Below, one piece after another: positions 6,371 to 31,738 of a DNA stretch of 64,000 nt (the stretch's first letter is position 1; each line of letters opens with the position of its first letter). Position numbers and translations under genes: made by a program. The notes beneath the pieces are model-generated. The model was not told the origin of the DNA, searched no databases, and worked only from the letters and a program-made list of their open reading frames with translations. The stretch lies in contig OZ076409.1 of the NCBI GenBank assembly GCA_964187785.1, positions 73,968,001 through 74,032,000 on the forward strand, in the 5' to 3' direction. The stretch comes from Amphiscolops sp. MND2022 (Eukaryota).

Positions 6371-7436
6371 ATGTTCCATATAAGAAGTGAATCATTCCAC
6401 ATATATACCCGGTCTAATATTTCCAAATTAGCGATAACATTTATACATGATGGTTTTTGAAAGTGAGCTTCATAAGAGGTTGAGATGTAATAATACGTAA
6501 ATGGACCCTAAGTTTCATTGAAATCTCAATTGAATACGTCCAATCAACTTCAATCCTAACTATTATATATCAAAAAACACTTGAGTACATTCCATCTCCC
6601 CATCGGGGGAGATGAGAATGTACTTTTCAAAAGCCAAAAACTTCGAATTTTAAATCTTTTGTAACATTGTATGTAACTGTTGAAACGATGAACGAATAAA
6701 AATGCTTCTAGTACCTTCATCAATTTTTGCTTCAGCTCCTATTTCTGCAGAACAAAACCAAAAGACACACTTACAGCAGTTAAGTTCGATTGTATAACTC
6801 AGTGAATAAAGGTATGACTGAGGAAGTTCACAAGTTGTTTCAAAAGTTTCCGGCCTTCCAAAATCATGAAACGTCCACACAACCAAGATAGCAAGTGAAA
6901 GAATGCTGAATGCACCTTATTAGATGAGATAAATAATGTGTGGAACTTGCCATTATCTCAAGATGACGTTGATTTATGATCTTTTCAGGATAGTTCGATA
7001 TGTGACCACAATAGTGGAAAACTTATTACTATTTGAAGAACACCGTGGAAAGCGTTCAGAAAGGACAGTATATTTGTTTCGAGCATGCATGCGTGTGTTC
7101 CTTTGGTGACGTTAGCTTAGTGTACATGACGGAGGTATTCGAGAGATTATGATAGAGTTTACTCACAAGTCTTTGTTTTTTTAAACTTTCTATGCCGTTG
7201 AGTACATTCGTAAGGTACATCCATCCCCTTCTCTGGGAATGTACGTTTGCCAAATGACTGTCATCCAAAATTCGTAATCCGGACGAGTTTAACTACATAA
7301 ACATGTGATGAGCGTTTTCAATTCACAACCGAATAACATTTTTTTCTCGAAAATGATGATGGTTTTGATTTTGATGTCTTCTACTTTTATCATCATGCAA
7401 ACGACCTTACCATGTCTCTCTTCTGTCGTCATTTGT

Positions 7437-7549
7437 ACAACGCCACATAGCGTTCCGACGCCCACCGTCTGTGGGCATGCCGAGGCATGCCCTTCGACGA
7501 CGTATGCCAAATGAGCCATACCCGCACTCTGGAGTGCGGTAGCAGCTAG
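7437..7549 (+). other. Representative conserved right-end module (present in all 23 unit ends)
   Basis: CAACGCC...CGACGCCCAC-GTCYGT-RGGCATGCCGAGGCATGCCY-TTCGACGACG-variable spacer-GC hairpin-CTRR. About 48-59 nt separate the palindrome from the end. Confidence 0.9.
7473..7492. promoter_or_regulatory. Invariant 20-bp palindrome, probable protein-binding site; 19/20 match to the p53-family response element (representative of 23 copies)
   Basis: GGGCATGCCG|AGGCATGCCC compared with RRRCWWGYYY x2 with zero spacer. Function not demonstrated. Confidence 0.5.
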
Positions 7550-9531: not shown

Positions 9532-12500
9532 GTGGGCGGGGGTAATTCCCCAACTAAAAAATCGGCCGGCGGGTAGGGTCCTGCCGGCCGTCCAAAATCA
9601 AAAATATACTAGTAGAAAACGGCCGGTCAAACGAGCTATTTTTTTATTTAACCGTTAGAATTTGGGTTTAGATTGCATGCGGCCATGAAATGGCCATACG
9701 AATCGAAGTTCCTGCTGACGTTTTGCGATTGAAACACTTTATAAAAAGTTATGGCCAATTTGTCAGTCACCTAGAAGGGCAAAATGAGGAAAATTTTAAC
9801 AAAGTCGCTGATAACTCAAAATGTGTTATTTTTTGGACTTTGACTGTGAAACAAGCTTGGAACCTTCATTTCGTGGCTGTGGCATTGCACTGAACGCAAA
9901 AGATGTAAAGTTTTTACATTTTTTGAAAATTTGACATTTTTGAAATTTTTTTCACTACTATCAGTACCATATATGTCAAAAACACCTCAGAAAAAAAATT
10001 TTATTTGCTTTAACTTGGAAACCTTGGTATCCATGGTTTCTGTCGGAACCTACTCGCAACCAAACAACCAACAGTTTGCATCCAATGTGAAAATAAAAAA
10101 TTTTTCTGGGTCATAAGCGTTTCACAAGGATTTCTCAACTTAGTATTAATTTACAAAATGGTCATTTTGAACACAATATTTTCATCGAGGCTTGTCGGCT
10201 ATAGCCTTAATGTTCTAGAACGGTCCCACTGGCAACGTAGGAAACATTTATAGTAATAGAAAGTTTAAAAAATATATTATCACCCTGTCTTCAGTCATTT
10301 TTCTGTCATTCGGAACTTAACTTAGAAAAATTTCGACCAAAATACCCATTTTTTGACAGATCGAAAATTCAAATTCAACTTTTTAAGCAAAATTATTAAC
10401 TCTGACGTAACCAGTGGGGCTCATGATACTCAAAAACACGATTGGGACTGGTACCAATGGCTCCAATATCATATGAGCCGCGATAAGACGTTATTTTGAG
10501 CAATACGTCTCAATTGAGGGAAACATCTCGCAAGCCTGGGATCACAGTTAAAGGTGATTTCGTCAAAAATTTACTCTTTTTCGTCAATCACTATGTACAC
10601 AGAGTGCGTAGGGTGAGTTTCAGCACTATAATGCGGTTTTTGAAGGAATCGGTCTGCTCAAGGGGTGGTATGAGACATTTTTTTTGCATGTAGTACTATA
10701 TTTCTCAAAACTTTTAGCCCATTATCTCGAAAAGCTCACTTCGCAAATTACTTTCAGTTACTCTATTCGAAGTTTAGAATATATATGAACACTGTGGTTG
10801 ATCAGAAACTCTTGACTATTTTGTTTTTGGAAAAAAACTGCCTTGCATGTGTTACATTAGTGGCAGGAAAAATACCAGTAGCTCCAAAAATCACAATTTT
10901 GGACGGACAGACCTGCAATGATGCAAAGCAAAAACGTTTCAACAACTTCTGGCGCCACTTTTTTTACCCAAGAGGTTCGAAATTACTATTAACAATGCTG
11001 ACATTCGCTATAAATAAGATCGAGGTCAATTTACTAACACTTAGGTTATACATTTATATCTGAGAAACCATTCTTTGTCAGGTCGCAATTTTAAATTTAG
11101 TTTGGGAAGCAATACTTTTCACTCTGAAGCAAACCGTTGGGCCCAAATTACTCAAAAACTACAAAAAGACTGTCACCATATGCCCTAATAGCATATGAGA
11201 TTCGACCGTTCGTTTTTAACACAAAAACTCTCATCCGAAGTAAACATGTTGAAAGCCTTGAATCACCGTGAGAAATGATTTCATCAAAAAATATTCCTTT
11301 TTCGTCAATCTTTATCTACACAGAACACGTTGTGTCATTTTCAGCCGTGAAATGAGCTTCTACCGTAATATGGGTTGCTCAAGGTGTTGTATAAGACAAA
11401 AACTTCCTCTTTTCTACTATCTTCTTCAAATATTTCAACCCTTTGTCACAAGAAGTTAATATTCAAAATCTCTTTGAAATGTTTCTTTAGGTTGGGGTGA
11501 AGTGTTAGAACAATAATTATGATCGAAGAATGATAGTATTGGTGTTTGGACCATGTCCGGATGAACAAATTGCAAAATCATGAAAAATTTCTTACCATTT
11601 TTGGTCATTTTGTCAGTACTAAAAATGTTAGCTGAAAAAGAATTTTTTTGATGGCACCATTGGATTCCTCTCAAAAAGTTAGCTATATTAACTGTGTAAT
11701 AACCCCGTATCTTTTCAATTTAAATAATTTTAAAAAGCCAACTTTTTTGACTAAAATCCTAAAAATCATACCATTTCCTAAAAAATTTCAAATGCCCCCC
11801 ATTTGACGTATAAGAATAGCACAGAAAACTATCACATACCGATCGACTCTACTTCCATTGTAGATTACCAGAATTTTGTTTAGAACAATTTTTGACAGAT
11901 GCAAAAAAAATTTAAACCCTCCAAAAAAGGGCCAAAATTACACGAAAAAATTGACCTTAAAATTTTAAAATGTCGAAAAATCATCAAAACCACAGCTTCT
12001 TGGGGTTCTATCAACTCCACGTGGTCCACAGAGTATGTTAAAACAAGTTTTACCCGTATTTGAGCAATATGTGAAAAAGCCGACTTTTTAGGGAATGAAA
12101 AACATACCATTTCCTAAAAAATTTCAAACGCACCCCATTTGACGTATAAGAATAGCACAGAAAACTATCACATACCGATCGACTCTACTTCCATTGTAGG
12201 TTACCAGAATCTTGTTTAGAACAATTGTTGACGGATGCAAAAAAAAATTAAACCCTCCAAAAATGGGCCAAAATTACACGAAAAAATTGACCTTAAATTT
12301 TTAAAATGTCAAAAAATCATCAAAACCACAGCTTCTTGGGGTTCTATCAACTCCACGTGGTCCACAGAGTATGCTAAAACAGGTTTTACCTGTTTCTGAG
12401 CTATATGTGAAAAAACCGACATTTTGGGGAAGAAAAACATACCATTTCCTAAAAAATTTCAAATGCACGCCATTTGCCGTATGAGAATAGCACAGAAAAC

Positions 12501-14293
12501 TATCACATACCGATCAACTCTACTTCTATTGTAGATTATCAGATTTTTGTTTAGAACAAATTTTTATGGATATAAAAAATTTTTAAACCCTCCAAAAATG
12601 AGCCAAAATAACACGAAAAAATGGACCCTAAATTTTTAAAATGTCAAAAAATTATCCAAACCACAGCTTCTTGGGGTTCTATCAGCTCCACGTGGTCCAC
12701 AGAGTATGCTAAAACAGGTTTTGCCCGTTTTTGAGCAGTATATGAAAAAGCCGACATTTTTGGGGAAGAAAAACATACCATTTCCTAAATAATTTCAAAT
12801 GCAGGCAATTTGCCGTATGAGAGTAGCACAGAAAACTATCACACACCGATCAACTCTACTTCTTTTGTAGATTATCAGAATTATGTTTAGAGTAAAGTTT
12901 TATGGATATGAAAAATTTTTATACCCTCCAAAATGGGCCAAAATGACACGAAAAAATTGACCTCAAATTTTTAAAATGTCAAAAAATTATCCAAACCACA
13001 GCGTCTTGGCGTTCTATCAACTCCAAATGACCTTCAGAGTATACCAAACCAGGTATTGCCAATCTTTTGAGCAATATTTAAAAACACCGACTATTTGGCA
13101 AGAACACCATAATATGTTCCATATAAGAAGTGAATCATTCCACATATATACCCGGTCTAATATTTACAAATTAGCGATAACATTTATACATGATGGTTTT
13201 TGAAAGTGAGCTTCATAAGAGCTTGAGATGTAATAATACGTAAATGGACCCTAAGTTTCATTGAAATCTCAATGGAATACGTCCAATCAACTTCAATCCT
13301 AACTATTATATAACAAAAAACACTTGAGTACATTCCATCTCCCCATCGGGGGAGATGAGAATGTACTTTCCAAAAGCCAAAAACTTCGAATTTTAAATCT
13401 TTTGTAACATTGTATGTAACTGTTGAAACGATGAACGAATAAAAATGCTTCTAGTACCTTCACCAATTTTTGCTTCAGCTCCTATTTCTGCAGAACAAAA
13501 CCAAAAAACACACTTACAGCAGTTAAGTTCGATTGTATAACTCAGTGAATAAAGGTATGACTGAGGAAGTTCACAAGTTGTTTCAAAAGTTTCCGGCCTT
13601 CCAAAATCATGAAACGTCCACACAACCAAGATAGCAAGTGATAGAATGCTGAATGCACCTTATTAGATGAGATAAATAATGTGTGGAACTTGCCATTATC
13701 TCAAGATGACGTTGATTTATGATCTTTTAAGGATAGTTCGATATGTGACCACAATAGTGGAAAACTTATTACTATTTGAAGAACACCGTGGAAAGCGTTC
13801 AGAAAGGACAGTATATTTGTTTCGAGCATGCATGCGTGTGTTCCTTTGGTGACGTTAGCTTAGTGTACATGACGGAGGTATTCGAGAGATTATGATAGAG
13901 TTTACTCACAAGTCTTTGTTTTTTTAAACTTTCTATGCCGTTGAGTACATTCGTAAGGTACATCCATCCCCTTCTCTGGGAATGTACGTTTGCCAAATGA
14001 CTGTCATCCAAAATTCGTAATCCGGACGAGTTTAACTACATAAACATGTGATGAGCGTTTTCAATTCACAACCGAATAACATTTTTTTTCTCGAAAATGA
14101 TGATGGTTTTGATTTTGATGTCTTCTACTTTTATCATCATGCAAACGACCTTACCATGTCTCTCTTCTGTCGTCATTTGTACAACGCCACATAGCGTTCC
14201 GACGCCCACCGTCTGTGGGCATGCCGAGGCATGCCCTTCGACGACGTATGCCAAATGAGCCATACCCGCACTCTGGAGTGCGGTAGCGGCTAG
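9532..14293 (+). mobile_element. Unit 4, 4762 bp, 4.76-kb class (near-identical to unit 2)
   Basis: ORF track repeats at offset 6744. Core 14217-14236, CTAG 14290-14293. Confidence 0.75.
11767..13115. repeat. Internal tandem repeat, ~4 x 336 bp (unit 4)
   Basis: Same monomers as unit 2. End approximate. Confidence 0.88.
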
Positions 14294-17200
14294 GTGGGCG
14301 GGGGTAATTCCCCAACAAAAAAATCGGCCGGCGGGTCGGGTCCTGCCGGCCGTCCAAAATCAAAATCCTCCTAGTAGAAAACGGCATGTCAAACGAGCTA
14401 TTTTTTTATTTAACCATTAGAATTTCACCATTTTTTGCATGCGGCCCTGAAATGGCCATACGAGACGAAGTTCCTGCTGACGTTTTGCGATGTAAATGTT
14501 TTATAAAAAGTTATGGCCGATTTGTCATTCACCTAGAAGGGTAAAATGAGGAAAATTTTAACAAAGTCGCTGATAACTCAAAATGTGTTAATTTTTGGAC
14601 TTTGACTGTGAAACAAGCTTGGAACCTTCATTTCGTGGCTGTGGCATTGCACTGAACGCAAAAGATGTAAAGTTTTTACATTTTTTGAAAATTTGACATG
14701 TTTGAAATTTCTTTCACTACTATCAGTATCATATATGTCAAAAACACCTCAGAAAAAAAATTTTATTTGCTTTAACTTGGAAACCTTGGTATCCATGGTT
14801 TCTGTCGGAACCTACTCGCAACCAAACAACCAACAGTTTGCATCCAATGTGAAAATAAAAACTTTTTCTGGGTCATAAGCGTTTCACAAGGATTTCTCAA
14901 CTTAGTATTAATTTACAAAATGGTCATTTTGAACACAATATTTTCATCGAGGCTTGTCGGCTATAGCCTTAATGTTCTAGAACGGTCCCACTGGCAACGT
15001 AGGAACCATTTATAGTAATAGAAAGTTTAAAAAAATATATTTTCACCCTGTCTTCAGTCATTTTTCAGTCATTCGGAACTTAACTTAGAAAAATTTCGAC
15101 CAAAATACCCATTTTTTGACAGATCGAAAATTCAAATTCAACTTTTTAAGCAAAATTATTAACTCTGACGTAACCAGTGGGGCTCATGATACTCAAAAAC
15201 ACGATTGGGACTGGTACCAATGGCTCCAATATCATATGAGCCGCGATAAGACGTTATTTTGAGCAATACGTCTCAATTGAGGGAAACATCTCGCAAGCCT
15301 GGGATCACAGTTAAAAGTGATTTCGTCAAAAATTTACTCTTTTTCGTCTATCACTATGTACACAGAGTGCGTAGGGTGAGTTTCAGCACTATAATGCGGT
15401 TTTTGAAGGAATCGGTCTGCTCAAGGGGTGGTATGAGACATTTTTTTTGCATGTAGTACTATATTTCCTAAAACTTTTAGCCCATTATCTCGAAAAGCTC
15501 ACTTCGCAAATTACTTTCAGTTACTCTATTCGAAGCTTAGAATATATATGAACACTGTGGTTGATCAGAAACTCTTGACTATTTTGTTTTTGGAAAAAAA
15601 CTGCCTTGCATGTGTTACATTAGTGGCAGGAAAAATACCAGTAGCTCCAAAAATCACAATTTTGGACGGACAGACCTGCAATGATGCAAAGCAAAAACGT
15701 TTCAACAACTTCTGGCGCCACTTTTTTTACCCAAGAGGTTCGAAATTACTATTAACAATGCTGACATTCGCTATAAATAAGATCGAGGACAATTTACTAA
15801 CACTTAGGTTATACATTTATATCTGAGAAACCATTCTTTGTCAGGTCGCAATTTTAAATTTAGTTTGGGAAGCAATACTTTTCACTCTGAAGCAAACCGT
15901 TGGGCCCAAATTACTCAAAAACTACAAAAAGACTGTCACCAAATGCCCTAATAGCATATGAGATTCGACCGTATGTTTTTAACACAAAAACTCTCATCCG
16001 AAGTAAACATGTTGAAAGCCTTGAATCACCGTGAGAAATGATTTCATCAAAAATATCCCTTTTTCGTCAATCTTTATCTACACAGAACACGTTGTGTCAT
16101 TTTCAGCCGTGAAATGAGCTTCTACCGTAATATGGGTTGCTCAAGGTGTTGTATAAGACAAAAACTTCCTCTTTTCTACTATCTTCTTCAAATATTTCAA
16201 CCCTTTGTCACAAGAAGTTAATATTCAAAATCTCTTTGAAATGTTTCTTTAGGTTGGTGTGAAGTGTTAGAACAATAATTAAGATCGAAGAATGATAGTA
16301 TTGGTGTTTGGACCATATCCGGATGAACAAATTGCAAAATCATGAAAAATTTCTTACCATTTTTGGTCATTTTGTCAGTACTAAAAATGTTAGCTGAAAA
16401 AGAATTTTTTTGATGGCACCATTGGATTCCTCTCAAAAAGTTAGCTATATGAACTGTGTAATAACCCCGTATCTTTTCAATTTAAATAATTTTAAAAAGC
16501 AAACTTTTTTGACTAAAATCCTAAAAATCATACCATTTCCTAAAAAATTTCAAATGCCCCCCATTCGACGTATAAGAATAGCACAGAAAACTATCACATA
16601 CCGATCGACTCTACTTCCATTGTAGATTACCAGAATTTTGTTTAGAACAATTTTTGACGGATGCAAAAAAATTTAAACCCTCCAAAAAAGGGCCAAAATT
16701 ACACGAAAAAATTGACCTTAAAATTTTAAAATGTCGAAAAATCATCAAAACCACAGCTTCTTGGGGTTCTATCAACTCCACGTGGTCCACAGAGTATGTT
16801 AAAACAAGTTTTACCCGTATTTGAGCAATATGTGAAAAAGCCGACTTTTTTGGGAATGAAAAACATACCATTTCCTAAAAAATTTCAAACGCACCCCATT
16901 TGACGTATAAGAATAGCACAGAAAACTATCACATACCGATCGACTCTACTTCCATTGTAGGTTACCAGAATCTTGTTTAGAACATTTGTTGACGGATGCA
17001 AAAAAAAATAAAACCCTCCAAAAATGGGCCAAAATTACACGAAAAAATTGACCTTAAATTTTTAAAATGTCAAAAAATCATCAAAACCACAGCTTCTTGG
17101 GGTTCTATCAACTCCACGTGGTCCACAGAGTATGCTAAAACAGGTTTTACCTGTTTCTGAGCTATATGTGAAAAAACCGACATTTTGGGGAAGAAAAACA

Positions 17201-19055
17201 TACCATTTCCTAAAAAATTTCAAATGCACGCCATTTGCCGTATGAGAATAGCACAGAAAACTATCACATACCGATCAACTCTACTTCTATTGTAGATTAT
17301 CAGATTTTTGTTTAGAACAAATTTTTATGGATATAAAAAATTTTTAAACCCTCCAAAAATGAGCCAAAATAACACGAAAAAATGGACCCTAAATTTTTAA
17401 AATGTCAAAAAATTATCCAAACCACAGCTTCTTGGGGTTCTATCAGCTCCACGTGGTCCACAGAGTATGCTAAAACAGGTTTTGCCCGTTTTTGAGCAGT
17501 ATATGAAAAAGCCGACATTTTTGGGGAAGAAAAACATACCATTTCCTAAATAATTTCAAATGCAGGCAATTTGCCGTATGAGAGTAGCACAGAAAACTAT
17601 CACACACCGATCAACTCTACTTCTTTTGTAGATTATCAGAATTATGTTTAGAGTAAAGTTTTATGGATATGAAAAATTTTTAAACCCTCCAAAAATGGGC
17701 CAAAATGACACGAAAAAATTGACCTCAAATTTTTAAAATGTCAAAAAATTATCCAAACCACAGCGTCTTGGCGTTCTATCAACTCCAAATGACCTTCAGA
17801 GTATACCAAACCAGGTATTGCCAATCTTTTGAGCAATATTTAAAAACACCGACTATTTGGCAAGAACACCATAATATGTTCCATATAAGAAGTGAATCAT
17901 TCCACATATATACCCGGTCTAATATTTTCAAATTAGCGATAACATTAATACATGATGTTTTTTGAAAGTGAGCTTCATAAGAGGTTGAGATGTAATAATA
18001 CGTAAATGGACCCTAAGTTTCATTGAAATCTCAATGGAATACGTCCAATCAACTTCAATCCTAACTATTATATAACAAGAAACACTTGAGTACATTCCAT
18101 CTCCCCATCGGGGGAGATGAGAATGTACTTTTCAAAAGCCAAAATTTTCGAATTTTAAATCTTTTGTAACATTGTATGTAACTGTTGAAACGATGAACGA
18201 ATAAAAATGCTTCTAGTACCTTCATCAATTTTTGCTTCAGCTCCTATTTCTGCAGAACAAAACCAAAAGACACACTTACAGCAGTTAAGTTCGATTGTAT
18301 AACTCAGTGAATAAAGGTATGACTGAGGAAGTTCACAAGTTGTTTCAAAAGTTTCCGGCCTTCCAAAATCATGAAACGTCCACACAACCAAGATAGCAAG
18401 TGAAAGAATGCTGAATGCACCTTATTAGATGAGATAAATAACGTGTGGAACTTGCCATTATCTTAAGATGACGTTGATTTATGATCTTTTAAGGATAGTT
18501 CGATATGTGACCACAATAGTGGAAAACTTATTACTATTTGAAGAACACCGTGGAAAGCGTTCAGAAAGGACAGTATATTTGTTTCGAGCATGCATGCGTG
18601 TGTTCCTTTGGTGACGTTAGCTTAGTGTACATGACGGAGGTATTCGAGAGATTATGATAGAGTTTACTCACAAGTCTTTGTTTTTTAAAACTTTCTATGC
18701 CGTTGAGTACATTCGTAAGGTACATCCATCCCCTTCTCTGGGAATGTACGTTTGCCAAATGACTGTCATCCAAAATTCGTAATCCGGACGAGTTTAACTA
18801 CATAAACATGTGATGAGCGTTTTCTATTCAAAACCGAATAACTTTTTTTTTCTCGAAAATGATGATGGTTTTGATTTTGATGTCTTCTACTTTTATCATC
18901 ATGCAAACGACCTTACCATGTCTCTCTTCTGTCGTCATTTGTACAACGCCACATAGCGTTCCGACGCCCACCGTCTGTGGGCATGCCGAGGCATGCCCTT
19001 CGACGACGTATGCCAAATGAGCCATACCCGCACTCTGGAGTGCGGTAGCGGCTAG
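14294..19055 (+). mobile_element. Unit 5, 4762 bp, 4.76-kb class
   Basis: Near-identical to unit 4 except for a variant patch near 14415-14545. Core 18979-18998, CTAG 19052-19055. Confidence 0.75.
16529..17875. repeat. Internal tandem repeat, ~4 x 336 bp (unit 5)
   Basis: Same monomers as unit 2. End approximate. Confidence 0.88.
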
Positions 19056-21039
19056 GTGGGCGGGGGTAATTCCCCAACAAAAATTACGGCCGGCGGGTTG
19101 GGTCCTGCCGGACGTCAAATAGCAAAGAATATCTAGTAGGAAACGGCGACACAGAATCGCGATTTTTAAATCTAACCACAATTTTTTGGACTTGGAGTGC
19201 ATGCGGCCCTGAAATGCCCATACGAATCGAAGTTCCTGCTGACGTTAAGCGATTGAAATAATATATAAAAAGTTATGGCCCATTTTTCACTCACAAAGAA
19301 GGGTAAAATGAGGAAATTTTTAACAAAGTCGCTGATAACTCAAAATGTGTTAATTTTTGGACATTGACTGTGAAACAAGCTTGGAACGTTCATTTCGTGG
19401 CTGTGGCATTGCACTGAACACAAAAGATGTAAAGTTTTCACATTTTTCGAAAATTCGACATTTTTGAATTTTTTTTCACTAGTATCAGCACCCCATATGT
19501 CAAAAACGCCTCAGAAAAAAATTTTTATTTGCTTTAAATTGGAAACCTTGGTATCCATGGTTTCTGTCGGAAACTACTCGCAGCCAAACACCCAACAGTT
19601 TGCATCCAATGTGAAAATAAAAATTTTTTCTGGGTCATAAGCGTTTCACAAGGATTTCTCAACTTAGTATTAATTTACAAAATGGTCATTTTGAACACAA
19701 AATTTTCATCGAGGCTTGTCGGCTATAGGCTTAATGTTCTAGAACGGTCCCACTGGCAACGTAGGAACCATTTATAGTAATTGAAAGTTATAAAAAAAAT
19801 TTTTCACCCGTTCTTCAGTCATTTTTCAGACATTCGGAACTTATCTTAGAAAAATTTCGTCTCAAACACCCATTTTTTGACAGGTCGAAAAATCAAAGTA
19901 GGATTTTTAAGCAAAATTATTAACTCTGACGTAACCCATGGGGCCCATGATACTCAAAACAACGATTGACACTGGTATCAATGGCTCCAATAACATATGA
20001 GTCGCGATAAGACGTTATTTTGAGCAATACGTCTCAATTGAGGTAAACATCTCGCAAGCCTGGGATCACAGTGAAATGTAAATTCATCAAAAATTTACTC
20101 ATTTTTGTCAATCACTATGTGCACAGAGTGCGTAGGGTGAGTTCCAGCACTATAATGAGGTTTTTGAAGGCATCGGGTTGCTCAAGGGGTGGTATGAGAC
20201 ATTTTTTTCTATATACTACTGTATTTTCCAAAACTTTTAGCCCATTATCTGGAAAAACTAACTTGACAAAATACTTTCAATAATTTTATTCAAAGGCTAC
20301 AATGTAGATGAACCCAGTGGTTGATCAGAAACTTTCATCTCTTTCGTTTTCCGAAATATTTCCCTTCGCATGTGTTACATTCATAGCAGAAAAAAAAATC
20401 GAAACTGAAAAATACGCTATTTTGCTGATATAGAATCGCAATGATTGTGCCTAAAAACTCTTTAAACACTTCTAACGCAACCTTACGCACCCAAAATGAT
20501 CGAAAATGCTATTCACAATGGTGACATGTGCTCTTTCTACGATCCTGGCTGGACAAGGTTTGCATATTTTTCAAGTACCTGTTAACTGAATCTCGTGATA
20601 GCCTTTTAAGTTGGCCTTGTGTCAACTTGGGAAGGCTATCACATCAAAAAACCATCAACAAAAATAATTTTTGTTTATTGGATCTTACAGTCGATATATA
20701 ATTTCGTGATTCTATACTACCGTTAGTACCTTCCATTAAGTCACCTGACGATTGCTTTCAGTCTTTGATAAATACCTATGAACTCGAAGTCTTATTTATA
20801 AATTTTGTGCTAAAAATAAACATCAAAACTATCCAAATTATTTAAAATTGAGTCTTTACCGTTTTTGTTTTTCTTTTTCTACTCTTATTAGGCTCATCAA
20901 CTTCCTACAGCCACGCTCTCTGTCATACTGTACAACGCCACATAGTGTTGCGACGTGCACGGTCTGTGGGCATGCCGAGGCATGCCCTTCGACGACGTAT
21001 GCCGAATACCGCGGGCCTACGCCCGCGCTCCCCGGCTAG
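19056..21039 (+). mobile_element. Unit 6, 1984 bp, ~2-kb class
   Basis: H2 hairpin near 20595-20642, core 20968-20987, CTAG 21036-21039. Confidence 0.75.
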
Positions 21040-23013
21040 GTGCGGGGGGGAAACCCCAACAAAATTTTTGGAGGATTCGGGTAGGGTCCTGAATCCGAGT
21101 TCAGTGCTGCCAGCTTTCGTTAAGAAAATTTGGATAGGATTCGGGATCTCGTGATCTAACCATAGGATTTTAAAGTTGGAGCGGCCCCCACCAGATTTTC
21201 CGAAAATTAGCGCCCCCCACCGGGTTCCATACCCCGGAAAATTTTTTTCTGGCCACACGGGCGACCGTTAGGGGGTCATTTTAGGGGTAAAATTCATATT
21301 GGGCCACATAACTTTTTTTCTGTTGATTTAAAACTTTGGGACCCTGCTAAAAGTTTCTTGACCGTGTTGCAAGGGCTCCGGAGGTCCAAACCAAATTTTT
21401 CTATCTTGAAGCTATCTCCAAGTACCCCCCCGCCCAAAACGTTATTTTTCCGGAAACGCAGGTTTTAGACCCGGAAGGAGTCGTCTGAGCGCGGGGTCGT
21501 TAGGTGATGTTTTGGGGACGGCCTTAAGACGAAGTGGGGGACATGTAGTTTGTCAACCTCAGTTTACCCCCCGGACAGGAAATGACCGTTATATGAGCGG
21601 GAAAATTGCCCCCCTCCACGTTTTACCGCTATTTCCGGTGTGAAGGAGTGGGAGTAGCGCGTCGGGTGTTATATAACAAAAGTAGGTTTAGACAAGAACC
21701 TATCGGAAACATGTAGTTTGGGACCCTCTGGACCAACCCGTTAGCGGGAAATGGCGCTTCCGCTTCCTTTTTTTACTGCTAAAACCGTAAAATGGGCATT
21801 GAGGGGTAAATATCTCGTGAACGCGTGGAGCAATCGTGTCCATCACTACTACAAGGTTTCATACCCATGATATGGTGCCTTCAGGGGGGCAAACAGATTT
21901 CCGCTATCTATCACCGTTACGGACTTGGCCCCCCAGCCTAACCGCTATGTGACCGGAAATGTCACTTTTTGAGCCCAAAGGGTCGGTCCCAGCCGGGGAA
22001 CGTTAGGTAACTTATTGTAGTACTCAATGAGACGAGTTGGGGGACATAGTTTCAGTCACCCCCCGTTACCCCTTGGGACCGGAAATGACCGTTATGTGGG
22101 TAAATTTGCTTTTTTTATACTCTTTGAAGTGGATTTATGTGCGGAAGGAGTGGTAATAGGTGCTTGGACACTATATGAGGTAAGGGAGGACGTGAGGCGA
22201 GCATTCGGAAATAACCGTTATGTTGACCCTAAAGTCCCCCTGGTACCGGAAGTGACCCGTAATGGTCAAATTTTGTGTTCAAAGGGTACAAATGTTTGGT
22301 GTTTTATGGATAACAGTGCCTATTAGGTGTTTCGACGGTCTGCAGTCGTGAACATATTCATGAAACCTTGTGGGGGGTAACGGTATAAAGCACCGGAAGT
22401 CCAAACCTTTGGAGAAAGGATAAGTTTTTTGGTTTTAAAATGTCTTTCGGCCTACTTTTGTCGACTATTACGGTCTATTTTTGAAAAATAATGTTTTTCC
22501 ATATAGTTTCAGAGACTCCGAAACCTCAACCAACATAACCGTTACGTTATGATAGCCTTTCAAGTTGGCCTGGTGTCAACTTGGAAGGGCTATCCTTCAA
22601 AAATCATTAATCAATTGTGTTTTTGAGTATGTTTGTATTACTTTAGAATCAATTAGAGCTTCAAAAAAGTTTGCCAACGACAAAAACTATGTCGTGATGA
22701 TTCCGTTATTAGAATAATGGTTAAGAAAATGTTGATAAATTTGATTTTTTACATTTCAAATGTGTCCTAAATGCCAGAAAACCTCTTTACCAAACAAATG
22801 GTATTGAGTGAATTGTATATAACAGCTAATAAAAGTTCAAATTGAATATTACGTTTCATTTTGGAAGCTGAAACGTCATATTGTAGTTTAATTAACGTCA
22901 ACGCCACATACTTTACATCAACGCCCACCGTCCGTAGGCATGCCGAGGCATGCCTTTCGACGACGTATACCAGATTCCACCCACACAACACCCCCGAGCG
23001 CGGTAGCAGCTAG
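21040..23013 (+). mobile_element. Unit 7, 1974 bp, ~2-kb length but a different, GC-richer body
   Basis: Starts GTGCGGGGGGGAAACCCC. Left hairpin 21073-21096, many CCGGAA motifs, H2 at 22551-22594, core 22936-22955, CTAG 23010-23013. Confidence 0.7.
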
Positions 23014-25003
23014 GTGGGCGGGGGTAATTCCCCAACAAAAAAATCGGCCGGCGGGTTGGGTCCTGCCGGACGTCAAATAGTGTGAAACATCCAGTAGGAA
23101 ACGGCGACATAAATCAGCGATTTTAAAATTTAACCGTTAGAATTCGGACTTGGAGTGCATGCGGCCCCAAAATGCCCATACGAATCGAAGTTCCTGCTGA
23201 CGTTAAGCGATAAAAACATTTTATAAAAAGTTATGGCCCATTTTACGTTCACCTATAAGGGTAAAATGAGGAAAATTTTAACAAAGTTGCTGATAACTCA
23301 AAATACATTAATTTTTGGACATTGACTGTGAAACAAGCTTGGAACCTTCATTTCGTGGCTGTGGCATTGCACTGAACACAAAAGCTGTAAAGTTTTCACA
23401 TTTTTTGAAAATTCGACATTTTTGATTTTTTTTTCAATACTATCAGTACCCCATATGTCAAAAACACCTCAGAAAAAAATTTTTATTTGCTTTAAATTGG
23501 AAACCTTGGTATCCATGGTTTCTGTCGGAACCTACTCGCAGCCAAACACCCAACAGTTTGCATCCAATGTGAAATAAAAAATTTTTTCGAGGTCATAAGC
23601 GTTTCACAAGGTTTTCATGATTTAGTATTAAATTACATAGTGGTCATTTTAAACATAAAATTTTGGTCCAGGCATGTCGGATATAGTCTGAATGCTCACG
23701 AACGGTCCTACTGGCAACGTAGGAACCATTTATAGTAATAAAAAGTATTAAAAAATTTTTTTCACCCGGTCTTCAGTCATTTTTCAGACATTCGGAACTT
23801 AACTTAGAAAATTTTCGAACCAAATACCCATTTTTTGTCAGCTCAATAATTGAAATTCAGCTATTAAAGCAAAATTTTTTACTCTGACGTAACCAGTGGG
23901 GTCCATGATACTCAAAAATACGATTGGGACTGGTACCAATGGCTCCTATATCATATGAGCCGCGATAAGACGTTATTTTGAGCAATACGTCTCAATTGAG
24001 GTAAACATCTCGCAAGCCTGGGATCACAGTGAAATGTAATTTCATCAAAAAATTACTCATTTTCGTCAATCACTATGTGCATAGAGTGGGTAGGGTGAGT
24101 TCCAACACTATAATGAGGTTTTTGAAGGCATCGGGTTGCTCAAGGGGTGGTATGAGTCATTACTTTCCTATATACAACTGTATTTTCAAAAACTTTTAGC
24201 CCATTATCTGGAAAAACTAACTTGACAAAATACTTTCAATTACTTTATTCAAAGGCTACAATATAGATGAACCCTGTGGTTGATCAGAAACTTTCATCTC
24301 TTTCGTTTTCCGAAATATTTCCCTTCGCATGTGTTACATTTGCAGCAGAAAAAAAAACTGAAACTAAAAAATACGCGATTTTGCTGAGATAGAATCGCAA
24401 TGGTTGCGCCTAAAATCTCTTTAAATACTTCTAACGCGACCTTACGGACCCAAAATGATTGAAAATGCCATTCACAATGCTGAAATGTGCTCTTTCTACG
24501 ATCCTGGCTGGACAAGTTTTGCATTTTTTTCAAGTACCAGTTAACTGAACATTGTGATAGCCTTTCAAGTTGGCCTTGTGTCAACTTGGGAAGGCTGTCA
24601 CATCAAAAAACTGTCAACAAAAATACCATTTGTTTATAAGATATTGCTGTCGATGCTTCACTTCGTGATTCGATCATGTCGTGAGTTCCTTCCATCAGGT
24701 CAGCTAACATTTGGATTCAGTGTTTGATAAGAACCTATGATTTTCATGACAATTTTTGTTTTTTTTTGCCAACAAAAAGTACGAATAAATGATATAAAAC
24801 ATATTTGTAACCTTTAGGAAGTTTAACTTTACCTTTATTTACCGTTACCATCGCCACCCACCCCCTACGACCTCGCAGTGTCCTCATTACAACGCCACAT
24901 AGTGTAGCGACGCCCACAGTCTGTGGGCATGCCGAGGCATGCCCTTCGACGACGTATGCCAAATATAGCGTTAGCCCGCGGTCACTACCGCGGTAGCAGC
25001 TAG
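23014..25003 (+). mobile_element. Unit 8, 1990 bp, ~2-kb class
   Basis: Same subfamily as unit 0. Core 24925-24944, CTAG 25000-25003. Confidence 0.75.
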
Positions 25004-26988
25004 GTGGGCGGGGGTAATTCCCCAACAAAAATTACGGCCGGCGGGTTGGGTCCTGCCGGACGTCAAATAGCAAAGAATATCTAGTAGGAAACGGCGACAC
25101 AGAATCGCGATTTTTAAATCTAACCACAATTTTTTGGACTTGGAGTGCATGCGGCCCTAAAATGCCCATACGAATCGAAGTTCCTGCTGACGTTAAGCGA
25201 TTGAAATAATATATAAAAAGTTATGGCCCATTTTTCACTCACAAAGAAGGGTAAAATGAGGAAATTTTTAACAAAGTCGCTGATAACTCAAAATGTGTTA
25301 ATTTTTGGACATTGACTGTGAAACAAGCTTGGAACCTTCATTTCGTGGCTGTGGCATTGCACTGAACACAAAAGATGTAAAGTTTTTAGATTTTTTGAAA
25401 ATTCGAAATTTTTGAAATTTTTTTCACTACTATCAGTACCCCATATGTCAAAAACGCCTCAGAAAAATTTTTTTATTTGCTTTAAATTGGAAACCTTGGT
25501 ATCCATGGTTTCTGTCGCATCCTACTCGCAGTCAAACACCCAACAGTTTGCATCCAATGTGGAAATAAAAATTTTTTCGGGGTCATAAGCGTTTCACAAG
25601 GATTTCTCAACTTAATTTCAAGTTACAAATTGGTCACATTGAACACATTATTTTCATCGAAGCGCGTCAGATACCGCCCTAAAGCTCACGAACGGTCCTA
25701 CTGGCAACGTAGCAACCATTTATAGAAATGTAAAGTTATAAAAAAAATTTTTCACCCGGTCTTCAGTCATTTTTCAGTCATTCGGAACTTAACTTAGAAA
25801 AATTTCGACCAAAATATCCATTTTTTGTCAGGTCGAAAAATCAAATTCAGATTTTTAAGCAAAATTATTAACTCTGACGTAACCCATGGGGCCCATGATA
25901 CTCAAAACAACGATTGACACTGGTATCAATGGCTCCAATAACATATGAGTCGCGATAAGACGTTATTTTGAGCATTACGTCTCAATTGAGGTAAAGATCT
26001 CGCAAGCCAGCGATCACTGTGAAATGTAATTTCATCAAAAATTTACTCATTTTTGTCAATCATTATGTGCACAGAATGCGTAGGGTGCGTTTCAGCACTA
26101 TAATGAGGTTTTTGAATGCATCGAGTTGCTCAAGGGGTGGTACGAGACATTTTTGTCCCATGTACTACTGTATTTTCCAAAATTTTTAGCCCAATATCTG
26201 GAAATACAAACTTGACAAAATACTTTCAACTACTTTATTCAAAGGTTACAATATAGATGAACACTGTGGTTGATCAGAAACTTTCATCTCTTTCGTTTTC
26301 CGAAATATTTTCCTTCGCATGTGTTATATTTGTATCAGAAAAAAAATCGAAACTGAAAAATACGCTATTTTGCTAATATAGAATCGCAATGATTGTGCCT
26401 AAAAACTCTTTAAACACTTCTAACGCGACCTTACGCACCCAATATGATCGAAAATGCTATTCACAATGGTGACATGTGCTCTTTCAACGATCCTGGCTGG
26501 ACAAGGTTTGCATATTTTTCAAGTACCTGTCAGCTGAATCTTGTGATAGCCTTTTAAGTTGGCCTTGTGTCAACTTGGGAAGGCTATCACATCAAACAAC
26601 CATCAACAAAAATAATTTTTGTTTATTGGATATTACAGTTGATACCTTATTTCGTGATTCTATACTACCGTTAGTATATTCCATGAGGTCACCTTACGAT
26701 TGCATTCAGACTTTGATGAAAACCTATGAACTCAATGTCACATTTATATATTTTTTGCCCAAGAAAATCATCAAAAACATCTAATATATATAAAATTGAG
26801 TCTTTAACTTTTTTACGTTTCAAGTTTCTGCCGTTATTAGGCCAATCAACTTCCTACAGCCACGCTCTCTGTCATACTGTACAACGCCACATAGTGTTGC
26901 GACGTGCACAGTCTGTGGGCATGCCGAGGCATGCCCTTCGACGACGTATGCCGAATACCGCGGGCCTACGCCCGCGCTCCCCGGCTAG
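25004..26988 (+). mobile_element. Unit 9, 1985 bp, ~2-kb class
   Basis: Close to unit 12. Core 26917-26936, CTAG 26985-26988. Confidence 0.75.
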
Positions 26989-29900
26989 GTGGGCGGGGGT
27001 AATTCCCCAACTAAAAATTCGGCCGGCGGGTCGGGTCCTGCCGGCCGTCCAAAATCAAAATCCTACTAGTAGAAAACGGCATGTCAAACGAGCTATTTTT
27101 TTATTTAACCGTTAGAATTTGGGTTTAGATTGCATGCGGCCATGAAATGGCCATACGAATTGAAGTTCCTGCTGACGTTTTGCGATTGAAACACTTTATA
27201 AAAAGTTATGGCCAATTTGTCAGTCACCTAGAAGGGCAAAATGAGGAAAATTTTAACAAAGTCGCTGATATCTCAAAATGTGTTAATTTTTGGACTTTGA
27301 CTGTGAAACAAGCTTGGAACCTTCATTTCGTGGCTGTGGCATTGCACTGAACACAAAAGCTGTAAAGTTTTCACATTTTTTGAAAATTCGACATTTTTGA
27401 AATTTCTTTCACTACCATCAGTACCCCATATGTCAAAAACACCTCAGAAAAAAATTTTTATTTGCTTTAAATTGGAAACCTTGGTATCCATGGTTTCTGT
27501 CGGAACCTACTCGCAGCCAAACACCCAACAGTTTGCATCCAATGTGAAATAAAAAAATTTTTCGAGGTCATAAGCGTTTCACAAGGTTTTCATGATTTAG
27601 TATTAAATTACATAGTGGTCATTTTAAACATAAAATTTTGGTCCAGGCATGTCGGATATAGTCTGAATGCTCACGAACGGTCCTACTGGCAACGTATGAA
27701 CCATTTATAGTAATAAAAAGTATTAAAAAAATTTTTTCACCCGGTCTTCAGTCATTTTTCAGACATTCGGAACTTAACTTAGAAAATTTTCGAACCAAAT
27801 ACCCATTTTTTGTCAGGTCGAAAATTGAAATTCAGCTAATAAAGCAAAATTTTTTACTCTGACGTAACCAGTGGGGTCCATGATACTCAAAAATACGATT
27901 GGGACTGGTACCAATGGCTCCTATATCATATGAGCCGCGATAAGATGTTATTTCGAGCAATACGTCTCAATTGAGGTAAACATCTCGCAAGCCTGGGATC
28001 ACAGTGAATTGTAATTTTATCAAAATTTTACTCATTTTTGTCAATCACTATGTGCACAGAGTGCGTAGGGGGAGTTGTAGCACTATAATGAGGTTTTTGA
28101 AGGCATCGGGTTGCTCAAGGGGTGGTATGAGACATTTTTTTCCTATATACTACTGTATTTTCCAAAACTTTTAGCCCATTATCTGCAAAAACTAACTTGA
28201 CAAAATACTTTGAGTTACTCTACTCAAAGCTTAGAACATAGATGAACACTGTGGTTGATCAGAAACTATTTACTATTTTGTTTTTAGAAAAAACTGCCTT
28301 GCATGTGTTACACTAGTGGCAGGAAAAATACCAGTAGCTCCAAAAATCACAAATTTGGACGGACAGACTTGCAATGATGCAAAGCAAAAACGTTTCAACA
28401 ACTTCTGACGCCACTTCTTTTACCCAAGAGGTTCGAAAACGCCATTAACAAGGCTGACATTCGCAATAAATAAGATCGAGGTCCATTTACTAACACTTAG
28501 GTTTCAAATTTGTTTCTGAGAAACCCGTTTTTGTCAGGTCGCAATTTCAAATTTAATTTGGGAAGCAAAATTTTTCACTCTGAAGCAAACCGCTGGGCCC
28601 AAATTACTCAAAAACAACAAAAAGACTATCACCATATGCTCTAATAACATATGAGATGCGACAGTATGCTTTTAACACAAAAACTCTCATCCGAAGTAAA
28701 CATGTTGAAAGCCTTGAATCACCGTGAGAAGTGATTTCATCAAAAAATATTTCTTTTTCGTCAATCACTATATACACAAAACCCGTTGTGTTAGTTTCAG
28801 CCGTGAAATGAGGTTCTACCGTAATATGGGTTGCTCAAGGTGTTGTATAAGAGAAAATCGTCCTCTTTTCTACTAACTTCTTCAAATATTTCGACCCTTT
28901 GTCACACGAAGTTAAAATTCAAAATCTCTTTGAATTGTTTCTTTAGGTTGGGATGAAGTGGTAGAACAATAACTTTGATCCAAGAATGCTAGTATTGGTG
29001 TTTGGACCATGTTTGGATGAACAAATCGCAAAATCATGAAAAATTTGTTTCTTTTTTTGGTTATTTTGGCAGTACTAAAAATGTTAGCTGACAAATAATT
29101 TTTTCGATAGCACCATTGGATTCCGCTCAAAAAGTTGGTTATATGACATGTGTAATAACGCCGTATCTTTTCAATTTAAATATATTTAAAAAGCCAACTT
29201 TTTTGACCAAAATCCTAAAAATCATACCATTTCCTAAAAAATTTCAAATGCACCCCATTTGACGTATAACAATAGCACAGAAAACTATCATATACCGATC
29301 AACTCTACTCTCATTGTGGATTATTAGCATTTTGTTTTGAACGAATTTTGATGGATATTAAAAAATTTTGAACCCTCCAAATATGGGCCAAAATTACACG
29401 AAAAAATTGACCTTAAAATTTTAAAATGTCAAAAAATCATCAAAACTACAGCTTCTTGGGGTTCTATCAACTCCACGTGGTCCACAGAGTACGCTAAAAC
29501 AGGTTTTACCCGTTTTTGAGCAATATGTGAAAAAGCCGACATTTTTGGGAAAGAAAAACATCCCATTTCCTAAAAAAATTCAATTGCACGCCATTTGCCG
29601 TATGAGAATAGCACGGAAAACTATCACATACCGATCAACTCTACTTTTATTGTAGATGATTAAAAATTAGTTTAAAACAAATTTTGACGGATATTAAAAA
29701 ATTTTAAACCCTTAAAAAATGGGCCAAAATTACACGAAAAAATTGACCTTAAAATTTTAAAATGTCACAAAATCATCAAAACCACAGCTTCTTGGGGTTC
29801 TATCAACTCCACGTGGTCCACAGAGTACGCTAAAACAGGTTTTACCCGTTTTTGAGCAATATGTGAAAAAGCCGACATTTTTGGGGAAGAAAAAATAGGC

Positions 29901-31738
29901 ATTTCCTAAAAAAATCAAATGCACGCCATTTGCCGTATAAGAATAGCACAGAAAACTATCATATACCGATCAACTCTACTCCCATTGTAGATTATTAGAA
30001 TTTTATTTTGAATGATTTTTGATGGTTATTAAAAAATTTTGAGCCCCCCAAAAGCGGGCCAAAATTACACGAAAAAATTGACCTTAAAATTTTAAAATGT
30101 CAAATAATCATCGAAACCACAGCTTCTTGGGGTTCTATCCACTCCACATGGCCCACAGAGTATGCCAAACCAGGTTTTGCGCGTTTTTGAGCAATATTTG
30201 AGAAAGCCGAGTTTTTTGGGGAAGAAAAACATAACATTTCCTAATAAAATTCAAATGCACGCCATTTGGCGTATGACAATAGCACAGAAAACTATCACAT
30301 ACTAATCAACTCTACTCTCTTTGTAGATCACCAGAGTTTTGCTTAGAATAAATTTTGATGAATATTTGTAAATTTTAAACCCTCCTAATATGGGCCAAAA
30401 TCACACGGAAAAATTGACCGTAAGGTATTAAAATGTCAGAAATTCATCAAAACCACAGCTTCTTGGGGTTCTATCATTTCTATATGACTTTCAGAGTATA
30501 CCAAACAAGGTATTAACATTGGGCGATAATTAAAAACACCAATTTTATTTTAGAAGAAAACCATAATAAGTTCAATATAAGAAGTGAATCATTCCATATA
30601 TATACCCTGTCTTATATTTTAAATTAGCGATAATATATATACTTGATGTTTTTTGAAAGTGAGCTTCATAAGTGGTTGAGATGTGATAATACGTAAATGG
30701 ATTCCAAGTTTCATCGAAATGTCAATGGAATACGTCCAATCAACTTCAATCTTAACAATTAGATAACAAAAAACCTAAGTACATTCCATCTCCCCATCGG
30801 GGAGATGAGAATGTACTTTTCAAAAACCAAAAACTTAGATGTTTTTTTTTTGTAACACTTACTGTAACTGCTGAAATGATGAAAGAATAATTATGCTTCT
30901 AATAACTCCATGATTTTTTGCTTCAGCATTTTTTTTGCAGAACAAAACCATCAGACATATTTTTCGCAGTTAAGTTCGATCGTATTACCCAGTGAACAAA
31001 GGTATGGAAGGATGTTTACAAGTTGTTTCAAAACTTTCCCGCCTTCCAAAATAATGAAACGTCTACACAACCAAGATAGCAAATGAATGAATGCGGAATG
31101 CATCTTATTAGATAAGATAAATAACGTGTAGAACTTACCTTTATCTGAAGTTGACGTTGATTTATGATCTTTAGAGGATAGTTTGATTTTTGACCATAAT
31201 AGTGGGAAACTAATTATTATATGAATGATGGCGTGGAAAGCGTTCAGAAATTGTAGTATTTTGGATTCGAGCATGTATGCGTGGGTTCCTTTGGTGGCGT
31301 TAGCTTAGTGTACATGATGGAAGTTTTCGATCTGTTATGATTAATTTTACTCACGAGTCTTTGTTTTTCCTATTTTTTTGCCATTAAGTACATTCATTCT
31401 ATCCCCTTTTCTGAGAATGTACGTTTGTCAAATGACTGTCATCCAAATTTTGCATTCCCGAAGAGTTTAAATACATAACACGTGTTTAGCGTTTCCAAAT
31501 CACAACCGAGTAACATTCTATTTTTTTTTCTCAAAATTGATAATGGTTTTGATTTTGGTGTCTTCTACTTTCATCATCCATCATAACAACCACCTTACCA
31601 TGTCTCTCGCTTGTCTTCATTTTACAACGCCACATAGTGTAGCGACGCCCACAGTCTGTGGGCATGCCGAGGCATGCCCTTCGACGACGTATGCCAAATT
31701 TAGCGTTAGCCCGCGGTCACTACCGCGGTAGCAGCTAG
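26989..31738 (+). mobile_element. Unit 10, 4750 bp, diverged 4.76-kb class member
   Basis: Has the 336-bp array and H1 (~30777-30817), but its terminal hairpin is the unit 0/8 type. Core 31660-31679, CTAG 31735-31738. Confidence 0.75.
29223..30570. repeat. Internal tandem repeat, ~4 x 336 bp (unit 10)
   Basis: Diverged monomers, same copy number. End approximate. Confidence 0.85.

What the first reader, a model, noticed from the sequence alone, without database searches (positions are those of the whole stretch)
22551..22594. Internal hairpin H2 marks the ~2-kb class, including the otherwise dissimilar unit 7
Seen: GATAGCCTT..AAGTTG-loop-CAACTT..AAGGCTATC lies about 440-460 nt before the right end of the 2-kb units (1061-1108, 9088-9135, 22551-22594, 59254-59303 and others). 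In unit 7 it is an isolated island of similarity. In unit 20 substitutions keep the pairing (GTGATAGCCTTCT-AAGTTGAC / GTCAACTT-G-AGAAGGCTATCAC, one bulged G). I did not see it in the 1.3-, 3.07- or 4.76-kb units. Inference: a structure-selected cis signal that tracks size class, such as a packaging signal, a second-strand origin or an attC-like single-strand site.
Basis: partly seen in the sequence, partly recalled or inferred. Interest (0 to 1): 0.74.

Follow-up and report, generated by a model that had tools for sequence, protein, structure and literature searches.

The report
Repeat hairpin placed by unit length
In a eukaryote-like array of non-coding, transposon-like repeats of four sizes, every unit keeps one strong DNA hairpin about four-fifths of the way along whatever its length, which suggests that something measures these units; what does so is not yet shown.

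Summary
H2 is real. It occurs 12 times, in all 11 full 2-kb units and the cut first unit, and in 0 of the 11 units of other sizes; in unit 7 it is an island among unrelated flanks. Formal covariation is not significant, but 7 of 8 stem changes keep + strand pairing.

H2 is not a size label as such. Each of the 22 full units has one dominant internal hairpin: H2 (2 kb), H3 (1.3 and 4.76 kb) or H4 (3.07 kb), three unrelated sequences. Its centre lies at 0.773-0.802 of unit length, and its distance to the terminal palindrome J is 0.187 x length (r 0.9985). The 4.76-kb units keep an intact H3 at the proportional site and a broken H3 at the ancestral 1.3-kb site. The four sizes step by a near-constant ratio of about 1.54.

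The units are non-coding, with Helitron-like 3' ends but no 5' TC. Best guess (0.35): a single-strand assembly or packaging origin of rolling-circle elements. No host, enzyme, particle or RNA was found, so the function is inferred.

The parts
22551..22594 (+). H2 in unit 7 (the finding): 19-bp stem, 5-nt loop, one bulged base on the 3' arm; centre at 0.777 of unit length, 373 nt before J
21040..23013 (+). Unit 7, 1974 nt; interior unrelated to the other 2-kb units, left part weakly related to the 3.07-kb units
21073..21096 (+). Left subterminal hairpin H0 of unit 7; a G-rich-loop hairpin with differing stem letters is found inside the left end of every left-end type folded
22936..22955 (.). 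Palindrome J of unit 7; its 16-nt core is exact near the right end of all 23 unit ends; outer pair switches G-C / A-T between units
23010..23016 (+). Junction U7/U8, CTAG|GTG; CTRGGTG at 23 of 23 junctions
1060..1109 (+). H2, unit 0 (unit cut by the window start)
9088..9135 (+). H2, unit 3
20595..20642 (+). H2, unit 6
24553..24602 (+). H2, unit 8
26542..26591 (+). H2, unit 9
38042..38091 (+). H2, unit 12
40026..40075 (+). H2, unit 13
46773..46822 (+). H2, unit 15
59254..59303 (+). H2, unit 20 (fully Watson-Crick variant)
61258..61307 (+). H2, unit 21
63247..63296 (+). H2, unit 22
2482..2520 (+). H3 in 1.3-kb unit 1 (0.776 L)
57404..57448 (+). H3 in 1.3-kb unit 19 (0.773 L)
6583..6625 (+). Intact H3 in 4.76-kb unit 2 (0.80 L); likewise 13326-13368, 18088-18130, 30777-30818, 35537-35579, 44257-44299
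7202..7244 (+). Broken relic H3 in unit 2 at the site orthologous to the 1.3-kb H3 (260 nt before J, 0.93 L); likewise 13945-13987, 18707-18749, 31388-31422, 36156-36198 and, weakly (E 0.62), about 44882-44926
49623..49664 (+). H4 in 3.07-kb unit 16 (0.789 L; bulge on the 5' arm, one mismatch); likewise 52696-52737, 55753-55794
5018..6355 (+). About four tandem 336-nt repeats inside each 4.76-kb unit (six such arrays), possible length filler
1..64000 (+). Whole window: head-to-tail array, 22 full units in four size classes (1278-1303 x2, 1974-1994 x11, 3057-3072 x3, 4750-4765 x6) plus two cut units; no coding gene found

Best explanation
SHOWN: H2 is the 2-kb-class version of a one-per-unit internal hairpin that folds best on the + strand and sits at about 0.187 x unit length from the terminal palindrome J (0.77-0.80 L from the left end) in all four size classes. 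The units are non-coding, head-to-tail, with shared terminal signals and interchangeable right ends. INFERRED, step 1: they are non-autonomous rolling-circle (HUH, Helitron-like) elements whose + strand is peeled off as single-stranded DNA and reinserted at an existing junction. INFERRED, step 2: the hairpin is the site where a helper protein starts to coat or package that strand, working both ways at unequal rates (about 4:1) or into geometrically similar particles of a few sizes. That would select both for discrete unit lengths and for a fixed fractional position, and a hairpin left at the wrong distance would decay.
For: Top + strand hairpin at 0.773-0.802 L in 22 of 22 full units by a stem score and in 10 of 10 units tested by folding energy with RNA and DNA parameters. 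Fit H-to-J = 0.187 L - 4 nt, r 0.9985, on 10 of the 22 units. Chance of such a narrow band for four classes about 1e-4 to 2e-4 under two nulls, post hoc. Three unrelated hairpin sequences share the position. The 4.76-kb right part is collinear with 1.3-kb unit 19 and holds a broken H3 at the orthologous site (DNA fold -2.4 to -6.9 kcal/mol) and an intact H3 at 0.80 L (-17.9 to -18.8). Unalignable lineages have like lengths: U7 1974 vs 1982-1994; spacers 244, 259, 261 nt. + strand wobble bias. CTRR at 23 of 23 right ends, with a short GC hairpin of varying letters in 18 of 23. Precedent for a 3'-portion stem-loop nucleating fast 5' and slow 3' coating: TMV (PMC4901926, passages).
Against: No Rep, RepHel or capsid gene in the window (0 of 65 frames above a Pfam cut-off) and no coding relative found. 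Left ends are GTG, not TC, and the one outside relative ends CGAG. No significant covariation in H2. Indel compensation within lineages is not seen: 1 of 7 pairs at p<0.05, so length selection rests on a few unrelated lineages. H4 has its bulge on the other arm and rests on one lineage. Helical coating would not by itself give size classes, and icosahedral packaging would not by itself give a proportional site. The fraction drifts from 0.773 to 0.802 with size.
Confidence: 0.35

Rival explanations
1. Second-strand origin (sso-like) of a rolling-circle element: the displaced + strand exposes the hairpin after about 80% of the round, a primer is laid there, and copying back over the long arm ends as the leading strand finishes the short arm.
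For: One hairpin per unit, + strand bias, upstream of the right end. Rolling-circle replicons start the second strand at a separate single-strand origin with host enzymes (PMC5714925, passages). A kinetic match would give a fixed fraction (inference).
Against: Does not explain discrete, geometric size classes. A host primase gives no reason for three unrelated but each highly conserved arm sequences; H3's 16-nt arms are invariant across units and L001.
Confidence: 0.2
2. RNA-level element: units are transcribed on + and the hairpin is a small-RNA precursor or a protein-binding or processing site in a length-graded non-coding RNA.
For: G.U-compatible changes on + only; H2 stem of 19-22 bp; J matches a recalled p53-family double decamer with one mismatch in 23 of 23 copies, which could be a promoter element.
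Against: No Rfam family at gathering level in the window; best loose match MIR9408 at 20.8 bits against a cut-off of 90, E 2. H3 and H4 stems are 16-19 bp, H3's conserved arm is 16 nt and its bulged base differs in L001; no lower stem beyond H2 in unit 7. A microRNA has no reason to sit at a fixed fraction of unit length.
Confidence: 0.15
3. Recombination site (attC-, res- or dif-like) at which arms are exchanged between units; hairpin type limits which arms can be joined.
For: Similarity between U7 and the other 2-kb units begins and ends at H2; U20's similarity ends just after H2. One X3 contig fits from 24552, the 5' edge of H2, with other letters before it. Two-box arms with one extra base recall folded attC sites (recalled).
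Against: Unit joins lie at CTRG|GTG, not at the hairpin. No 1.3/4.76-kb arm swaps among the 8 H3-bearing units. The spacer also diverges fastest between related units, so the sharp edges can come from conservation alone. Does not explain the scaling. H2 has no unpaired central spacer and its GTT precedes its AAC (attC rules recalled).
Confidence: 0.12
4. No positional selection: each family inherited a hairpin, and the common fraction and the size ladder are coincidences among four families.
For: Only four classes and about six lineages; the tests were chosen after seeing the data; indel test unconvincing.
Against: p about 1e-4 to 2e-4 for position and about 4e-4 for equal log steps; relic H3 decayed at the old site while an intact one stands at the proportional site.
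Confidence: 0.08

Closest known systems
Non-autonomous canonical Helitrons (HLE1), including tandem and centromeric arrays (PMC11417382, PMC13286980, PMC13404089: passages; PMC11934779: abstract)
   Same: Non-coding interior with internal satellites, short GC hairpin plus CTRR at the 3' end, exchangeable right ends, arrays.
   Different: No 5' TC; an extra conserved palindrome J and left hairpin H0; mixed families in one array; four tight size classes; an internal hairpin at a fixed fraction of length, which none of the passages read describes.
Tobamovirus origin of assembly (PMC4901926, passages)
   Same: Works-like model: an internal stem-loop in the 3' portion starts two-way coating, fast towards 5' and slow towards 3'.
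   Different: RNA virus with its own coat gene; no size ladder. No coat gene, RNA or particle is known here.
Single-strand origins of rolling-circle plasmids and phages (PMC5714925, passages)
   Same: A separate site on the displaced strand used only when single-stranded.
   Different: Prokaryotic; no length scaling in the passages read; no sequence match in phage or plasmid collections for units 7-8.
IS607 / Fanzor2 elements (10.1101/2023.08.09.552727, passages)
   Same: A GG dinucleotide at every junction; structured right end with short direct repeats.
   Different: No serine recombinase or TnpB-like gene seen; no internal scaled hairpin in the passages read.
Replitrons (PMC10288648, passages)
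   Same: HUH elements with non-autonomous partners and a right-end hairpin.
   Different: Reported from plants, algae and protists with short terminal direct repeats; no such arrays or size classes in the passages read.

Membership tests
Helitron HLE1 | 3' end CTRR | tested here: met
   23 of 23 window junctions (20 CTAG, 3 CTGG). The outside relative L001 reads CGAG.
Helitron HLE1 | 16-20-nt hairpin 10-15 nt from the 3' end | tested here: inconclusive
   Short GC hairpin with varying letters in 18 of 23 ends; weak or differently placed in U7, U16-18, U19.
Helitron HLE1 | 5' end TC | tested here: not met
   GTG follows the CTRR in 23 of 23 junctions.
Helitron HLE1 | Insertion between A and T without duplication | not testable with these tools
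   No array edge in the window and no genome held.
Helitron HLE1 | RepHel-coding partner with the same ends | tested here: inconclusive
   None in the window; one 1172-nt non-coding relative outside it; eukaryotic genomes are not searchable here.
Helitron HLE2 / Helentron | Short terminal inverted repeats and T^T insertion | tested here: not met
   No TT at the junction; no terminal inverted repeat by inspection of the junction alignment.
IS607 / Fanzor2 | Matching GG core at the crossover | tested here: inconclusive
   GG is invariant at all junctions and in L001, but so is the wider GGT; without flanks the cut site is undefined.
IS607 / Fanzor2 | Serine recombinase or TnpB-like gene | tested here: not met
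   No Pfam match above cut-off in 65 frames of 8 units; a partner elsewhere cannot be excluded.
Replitron | Short terminal direct repeats | tested here: inconclusive
   Only a shared core of about 4 nt at joins.
Integron attC site | R and L boxes with an unpaired central spacer; cassette join at the site (recalled) | tested here: not met
   Continuous stem, GTT before AAC, joins elsewhere.
Animal pre-miRNA | Known family or a stem holding a 22-nt duplex with a lower stem | tested here: not met
   No Rfam match; H3/H4 stems 16-19 bp; no lower stem in unit 7.
Animal pre-miRNA | Discrete mature and star reads | not testable with these tools
   No RNA holder listed.
Single-strand origin / packaging or assembly origin | Function on the displaced strand or in particles | not testable with these tools
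   Needs eccDNA, particle or mobilisation data.
   45 of 500 shuffles reach the score; 13 of 21 pairs never vary. One-sided changes: 7 of 8 keep pairing, rough p 0.003.

The most novel reading that the evidence does not exclude
The array is a stored set of size-graded nucleic-acid rulers or segments of an undescribed endogenous multipartite system. Unit lengths form a logarithmic ladder (left end to J: 1229, 1920, 3007, 4690 nt, ratio 1.56 each; left end to hairpin interleaves it in steps of about 1.25), and each unit's hairpin nucleates a particle or filament whose size is set by the unit. It predicts further rungs near 0.8 and 7.3 kb with a hairpin about 0.19 L before J.
Probability: 0.2. 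Interest if true: 0.95.

Novelty: new variant of a known kind. Interest (0 to 1): 0.77.

Why it matters
Non-autonomous transposons are normally taken to need only their ends, with free length and free interior. Here unrelated interiors converge on four lengths, and an internal hairpin is kept at a fixed fraction of length, apparently re-sited when a unit changed class. If that holds, something measures these elements: a particle, or two coupled processes. It would be direct sequence evidence for a packaged or length-gated stage in a eukaryotic rolling-circle element, which bears on how such elements move between hosts. It also gives sharp tests: where the hairpin of any new size class must lie, and which lengths should exist.

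Tried and rejected
Whole genome: none is held for this window, so flanks, dispersed copies and a coding partner could not be sought.

Collection scans: junction, H2 and H3 patterns gave 0 matches in 6 of 6 viral-contig scans and 0 in 2 of 2 genome-contig scans; the one metagenome scan gave 1 locus. Units 7-8 had no match in phages or plasmids; other units were not searched there.

Coding: 65 stop-free frames of 62 aa or more from 8 of the 22 units; 1 sub-threshold DUF5764 match (19.3 bits against 29.2), taken as chance.

RNA families: none. Sequencing runs: no RNA holder listed. In one search unit 7's H2 is poorly covered (X1 has no depth at 22422-22705), which shows nothing either way. The two H2 changes listed for X2 and X3 (24566, 24597) only restore the main window variant; 191 further rows were not shown.

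Covariation in H2: not significant. Indel compensation: 1 of 7 pairs. Sigma-70 promoter and terminator scan: at or below shuffle level.

Amplification artefact from one circle: rejected, since adjacent same-class units are mostly 86-98% alike (U21/U22, 99.65%, is the exception), and X1 shows unit 7's left end behind a different right-end type. Kinetoplast minicircle: rejected by inspection, the block-like motifs lie on opposite strands (blocks recalled). Tiny TA-flanked MITE: rejected, any inverted repeat holding TA looks so, and H4 lacks it. A second, weaker hairpin in the 3.07-kb units (52789-52819) was considered as their signal; H4 folds far better. Relations such as 'next length = twice the left arm' were noticed and not pursued. 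Earlier scan notes: nothing relevant in 6 look-ups.

Full report
THE ARRAY. The window is one head-to-tail array on the + strand. A 16-nt palindrome core, J, occurs 23 times, and 65-76 nt after its start every copy is followed by CTRG|GTG. Cutting there gives 22 full units and two cut ones, in four size classes: 1278 and 1303; 1974-1994 (11); 3057-3072 (3); 4750-4765 (6). No stop-free frame exceeds 157 aa, 65 frames from 8 units give no Pfam match above cut-off, and Rfam finds nothing. CpG is little depleted (o/e 0.66-1.08 in 7 units). A eukaryotic host is inferred from the non-coding 64-kb array; it was not identified, and no genome is held.

THE OBSERVATION. It occurs 12 times, against 0 in 100 shuffles: in 11 of 11 full 2-kb units, in the cut unit 0, and in none of the 11 other units. 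In unit 7 it is 76-83% identical to the three copies compared, while both flanks are near shuffle level. By unit the link to size is strong (p 3e-6), but units are related; by lineage it is p 0.067 or 0.029. What remains is one-sided. Of 8 distinct changes in the inner 19 pairs (two outer pairs dropped as outside the island shared with U7), 7 keep pairing on +, and the eighth is absorbed by a shift of the bulge. Five positions toggle Watson-Crick/G.T on +, none A.C (rough p 0.003 and 0.03). This points to folding of the + strand, as DNA or RNA.

H2 IS ONE OF THREE. The 1.3-kb and 4.76-kb units share a different hairpin, H3. The 3.07-kb units have a third, H4. H2 and H3 have the same build: an outer stem, one bulged base on the 3' arm, an inner stem of mostly 8-9 bp and a short loop. 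H4 has its bulge on the 5' arm and one mismatch. A scan blind to these sequences ranks them first on + in 22 of 22 units, and sliding-window folding does so in 10 of 10 units tested, with RNA and with DNA energies. An outside metagenome contig, L001, has J and H3 with invariant 16-nt arms, a different loop and a different bulged base. Its H3 lies about 235 nt before J (by hand), as in the 1.3-kb units; its unit length is unknown.

POSITION SCALES WITH LENGTH. The hairpin centre lies at 0.773-0.802 of unit length in all 22 units. Its distance to J is 222-236, 357-374, 588-591 and 872-887 nt in the four classes, 0.174-0.192 of length. On 10 representative units the fit is 0.187 L - 4 nt, r 0.9985, residuals up to 21 nt. 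For four independent classes so narrow a band has probability about 1e-4 (uniform in the unit) or 2e-4 (log-uniform 250-1000 nt from the right end); both tests are post hoc. The spacer between hairpin and J is the fastest-changing part of the 2-kb units. It is unalignable between U7, U20 and U3, yet measures 261, 259 and 244 nt.

A NATURAL EXPERIMENT. The 4.76-kb units are mosaics. Their first 1473 nt match the 2-kb units and stop about 65 nt short of H2, they hold about four 336-nt repeats, and their last 700 nt are collinear with 1.3-kb unit 19. At the place orthologous to unit 19's H3, 260-265 nt before J, five of the six carry a clear broken H3 that has lost the inner 3' box, and U14 a fainter one (E 0.62). 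An intact H3 stands 872-887 nt before J. DNA folding energies are -2.4 to -6.9 for three relics and -17.9 to -18.8 for their intact partners. The simplest reading (inference) is that the hairpin at the old distance decayed once the unit grew, while one at the proportional distance was kept. The decay may be a single ancestral event, so this counts once.

THE SIZE LADDER. Class means of 1290, 1984, 3066 and 4760 nt have log steps of 0.430, 0.435 and 0.440; four random sizes do this well about 4 times in 10,000 (post hoc). Measured from the left end to J the ratios are 1.562, 1.566 and 1.560. I cannot explain this. Against length selection, indels between related units do not cancel more than by chance (1 of 7 pairs at p<0.05), so the case rests on unrelated lineages (U7 against the other 2-kb units; U1 against U19, which are distant relatives).

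THE ENDS. Right ends finish in CTRR (23 of 23), 18 of them after a short GC hairpin whose letters differ between types. This is the canonical Helitron 3' end as described in PMC11417382 and PMC13286980 (passages). Left ends begin GTG, not TC, and L001's join reads CGAG|GTG, so these are not filed as HLE1 members. A second hairpin, H0, with a G-rich loop and differing stems lies about 30-60 nt inside the left end. Right-end modules are shared across classes (U10 with U8, U20 with U1). In run X1, unit 7's left end follows a U8-type right end, so order or ends differ elsewhere. J matches a recalled p53-family double decamer with one mismatch in 23 of 23 copies; this was not tested further.

MECHANISM. 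Shown: one + strand hairpin per unit at a fixed fraction of length, in non-coding units with shared ends. Inferred: rolling-circle mobilisation by an unseen HUH helper (moderate). Inferred further: the hairpin starts a two-way process whose arms must finish together, or sits at a fixed place in particles of a few sizes. I put assembly or packaging first (0.35) because only it addresses both size classes and position; TMV's origin of assembly is the works-like case (PMC4901926, passages). It is still an awkward fit, since no one particle type gives both features. A second-strand origin (0.2), an RNA-level role (0.15), a recombination site (0.12) and coincidence (0.08) follow.

NOVELTY. Arrays of non-autonomous Helitron-like elements are known (PMC13404089, PMC13085455: passages; PMC11934779: abstract only). 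I found no report of size classes with a length-proportional internal hairpin in ten word searches of the held library (aimed most directly at it, returned nothing). The library lacks most subscription papers and Repbase, and I read passages or abstracts, no whole texts and no supplements, where such families could be described. Also read as passages: PMC10288648, 10.1101/2023.08.09.552727, PMC5714925. The attC, kinetoplast and p53 rules are recalled.

VERDICT. Observation confirmed; interpretation partly supported and superseded by a stronger pattern. New variant of a known kind; interest 0.77.

Noticed in passing
window, all 23 J copies (e.g. 22936-22955): J matches a recalled p53-family double-decamer consensus with one mismatch in 23 of 23 copies; the outer pair switches G-C / A-T. 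A two-mismatch match also lies in four of the 336-nt arrays.
   Followed up: partly
window, class lengths: Sizes form a near-geometric series; left-end-to-hairpin and left-end-to-J distances interleave as 1000, 1229, 1554, 1920, 2418, 3007, 3812, 4690 nt, steps 1.23-1.27.
   Followed up: partly
window 21073-21096 and the same place in the other units; L001 about 917-938: Left subterminal hairpin H0 with a G-rich loop, differing stem letters between lineages and a G.T pair kept on + in most types.
   Followed up: partly
window 2788-7549 and other 4.76-kb and 3.07-kb units: Identity between copies is highest at the left end (0.94-1.00 over the first 200 nt) and, in the 4.76-kb class, falls rightwards, with peaks at the hairpin and J.
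   Followed up: no
window 21631-21772, 47682-47767, 56887-56938: An island shared by unit 7, the 3.07-kb units and unit 19; unit 7 and the 3.07-kb units are rich in CCGGAA-containing motifs.
   Followed up: no
window 5018-6355; 335-715 vs 4324-4703; 21538 vs 22040: Interior modules repeat at about 336 nt and, by eye in unit 7, about 500 nt, near multiples of a nucleosome length.
   Followed up: no
window 52789-52819, 55846-55876: Second, weaker hairpin in the 3.07-kb units carrying the two inner H2 hexamers in swapped order.
   Followed up: partly
window 7424-21091 vs 24879-38540: A 13.7-kb higher-order duplication of four units at 92% identity.
   Followed up: no
L001 1-1172: Outside relative with H3, J and a new left end that resembles unit 7's.
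   Followed up: yes
window 24552, run X3: A contig fits from the 5' edge of H2 onward but has other letters before it: a possible further H2-bearing lineage.
   Followed up: no
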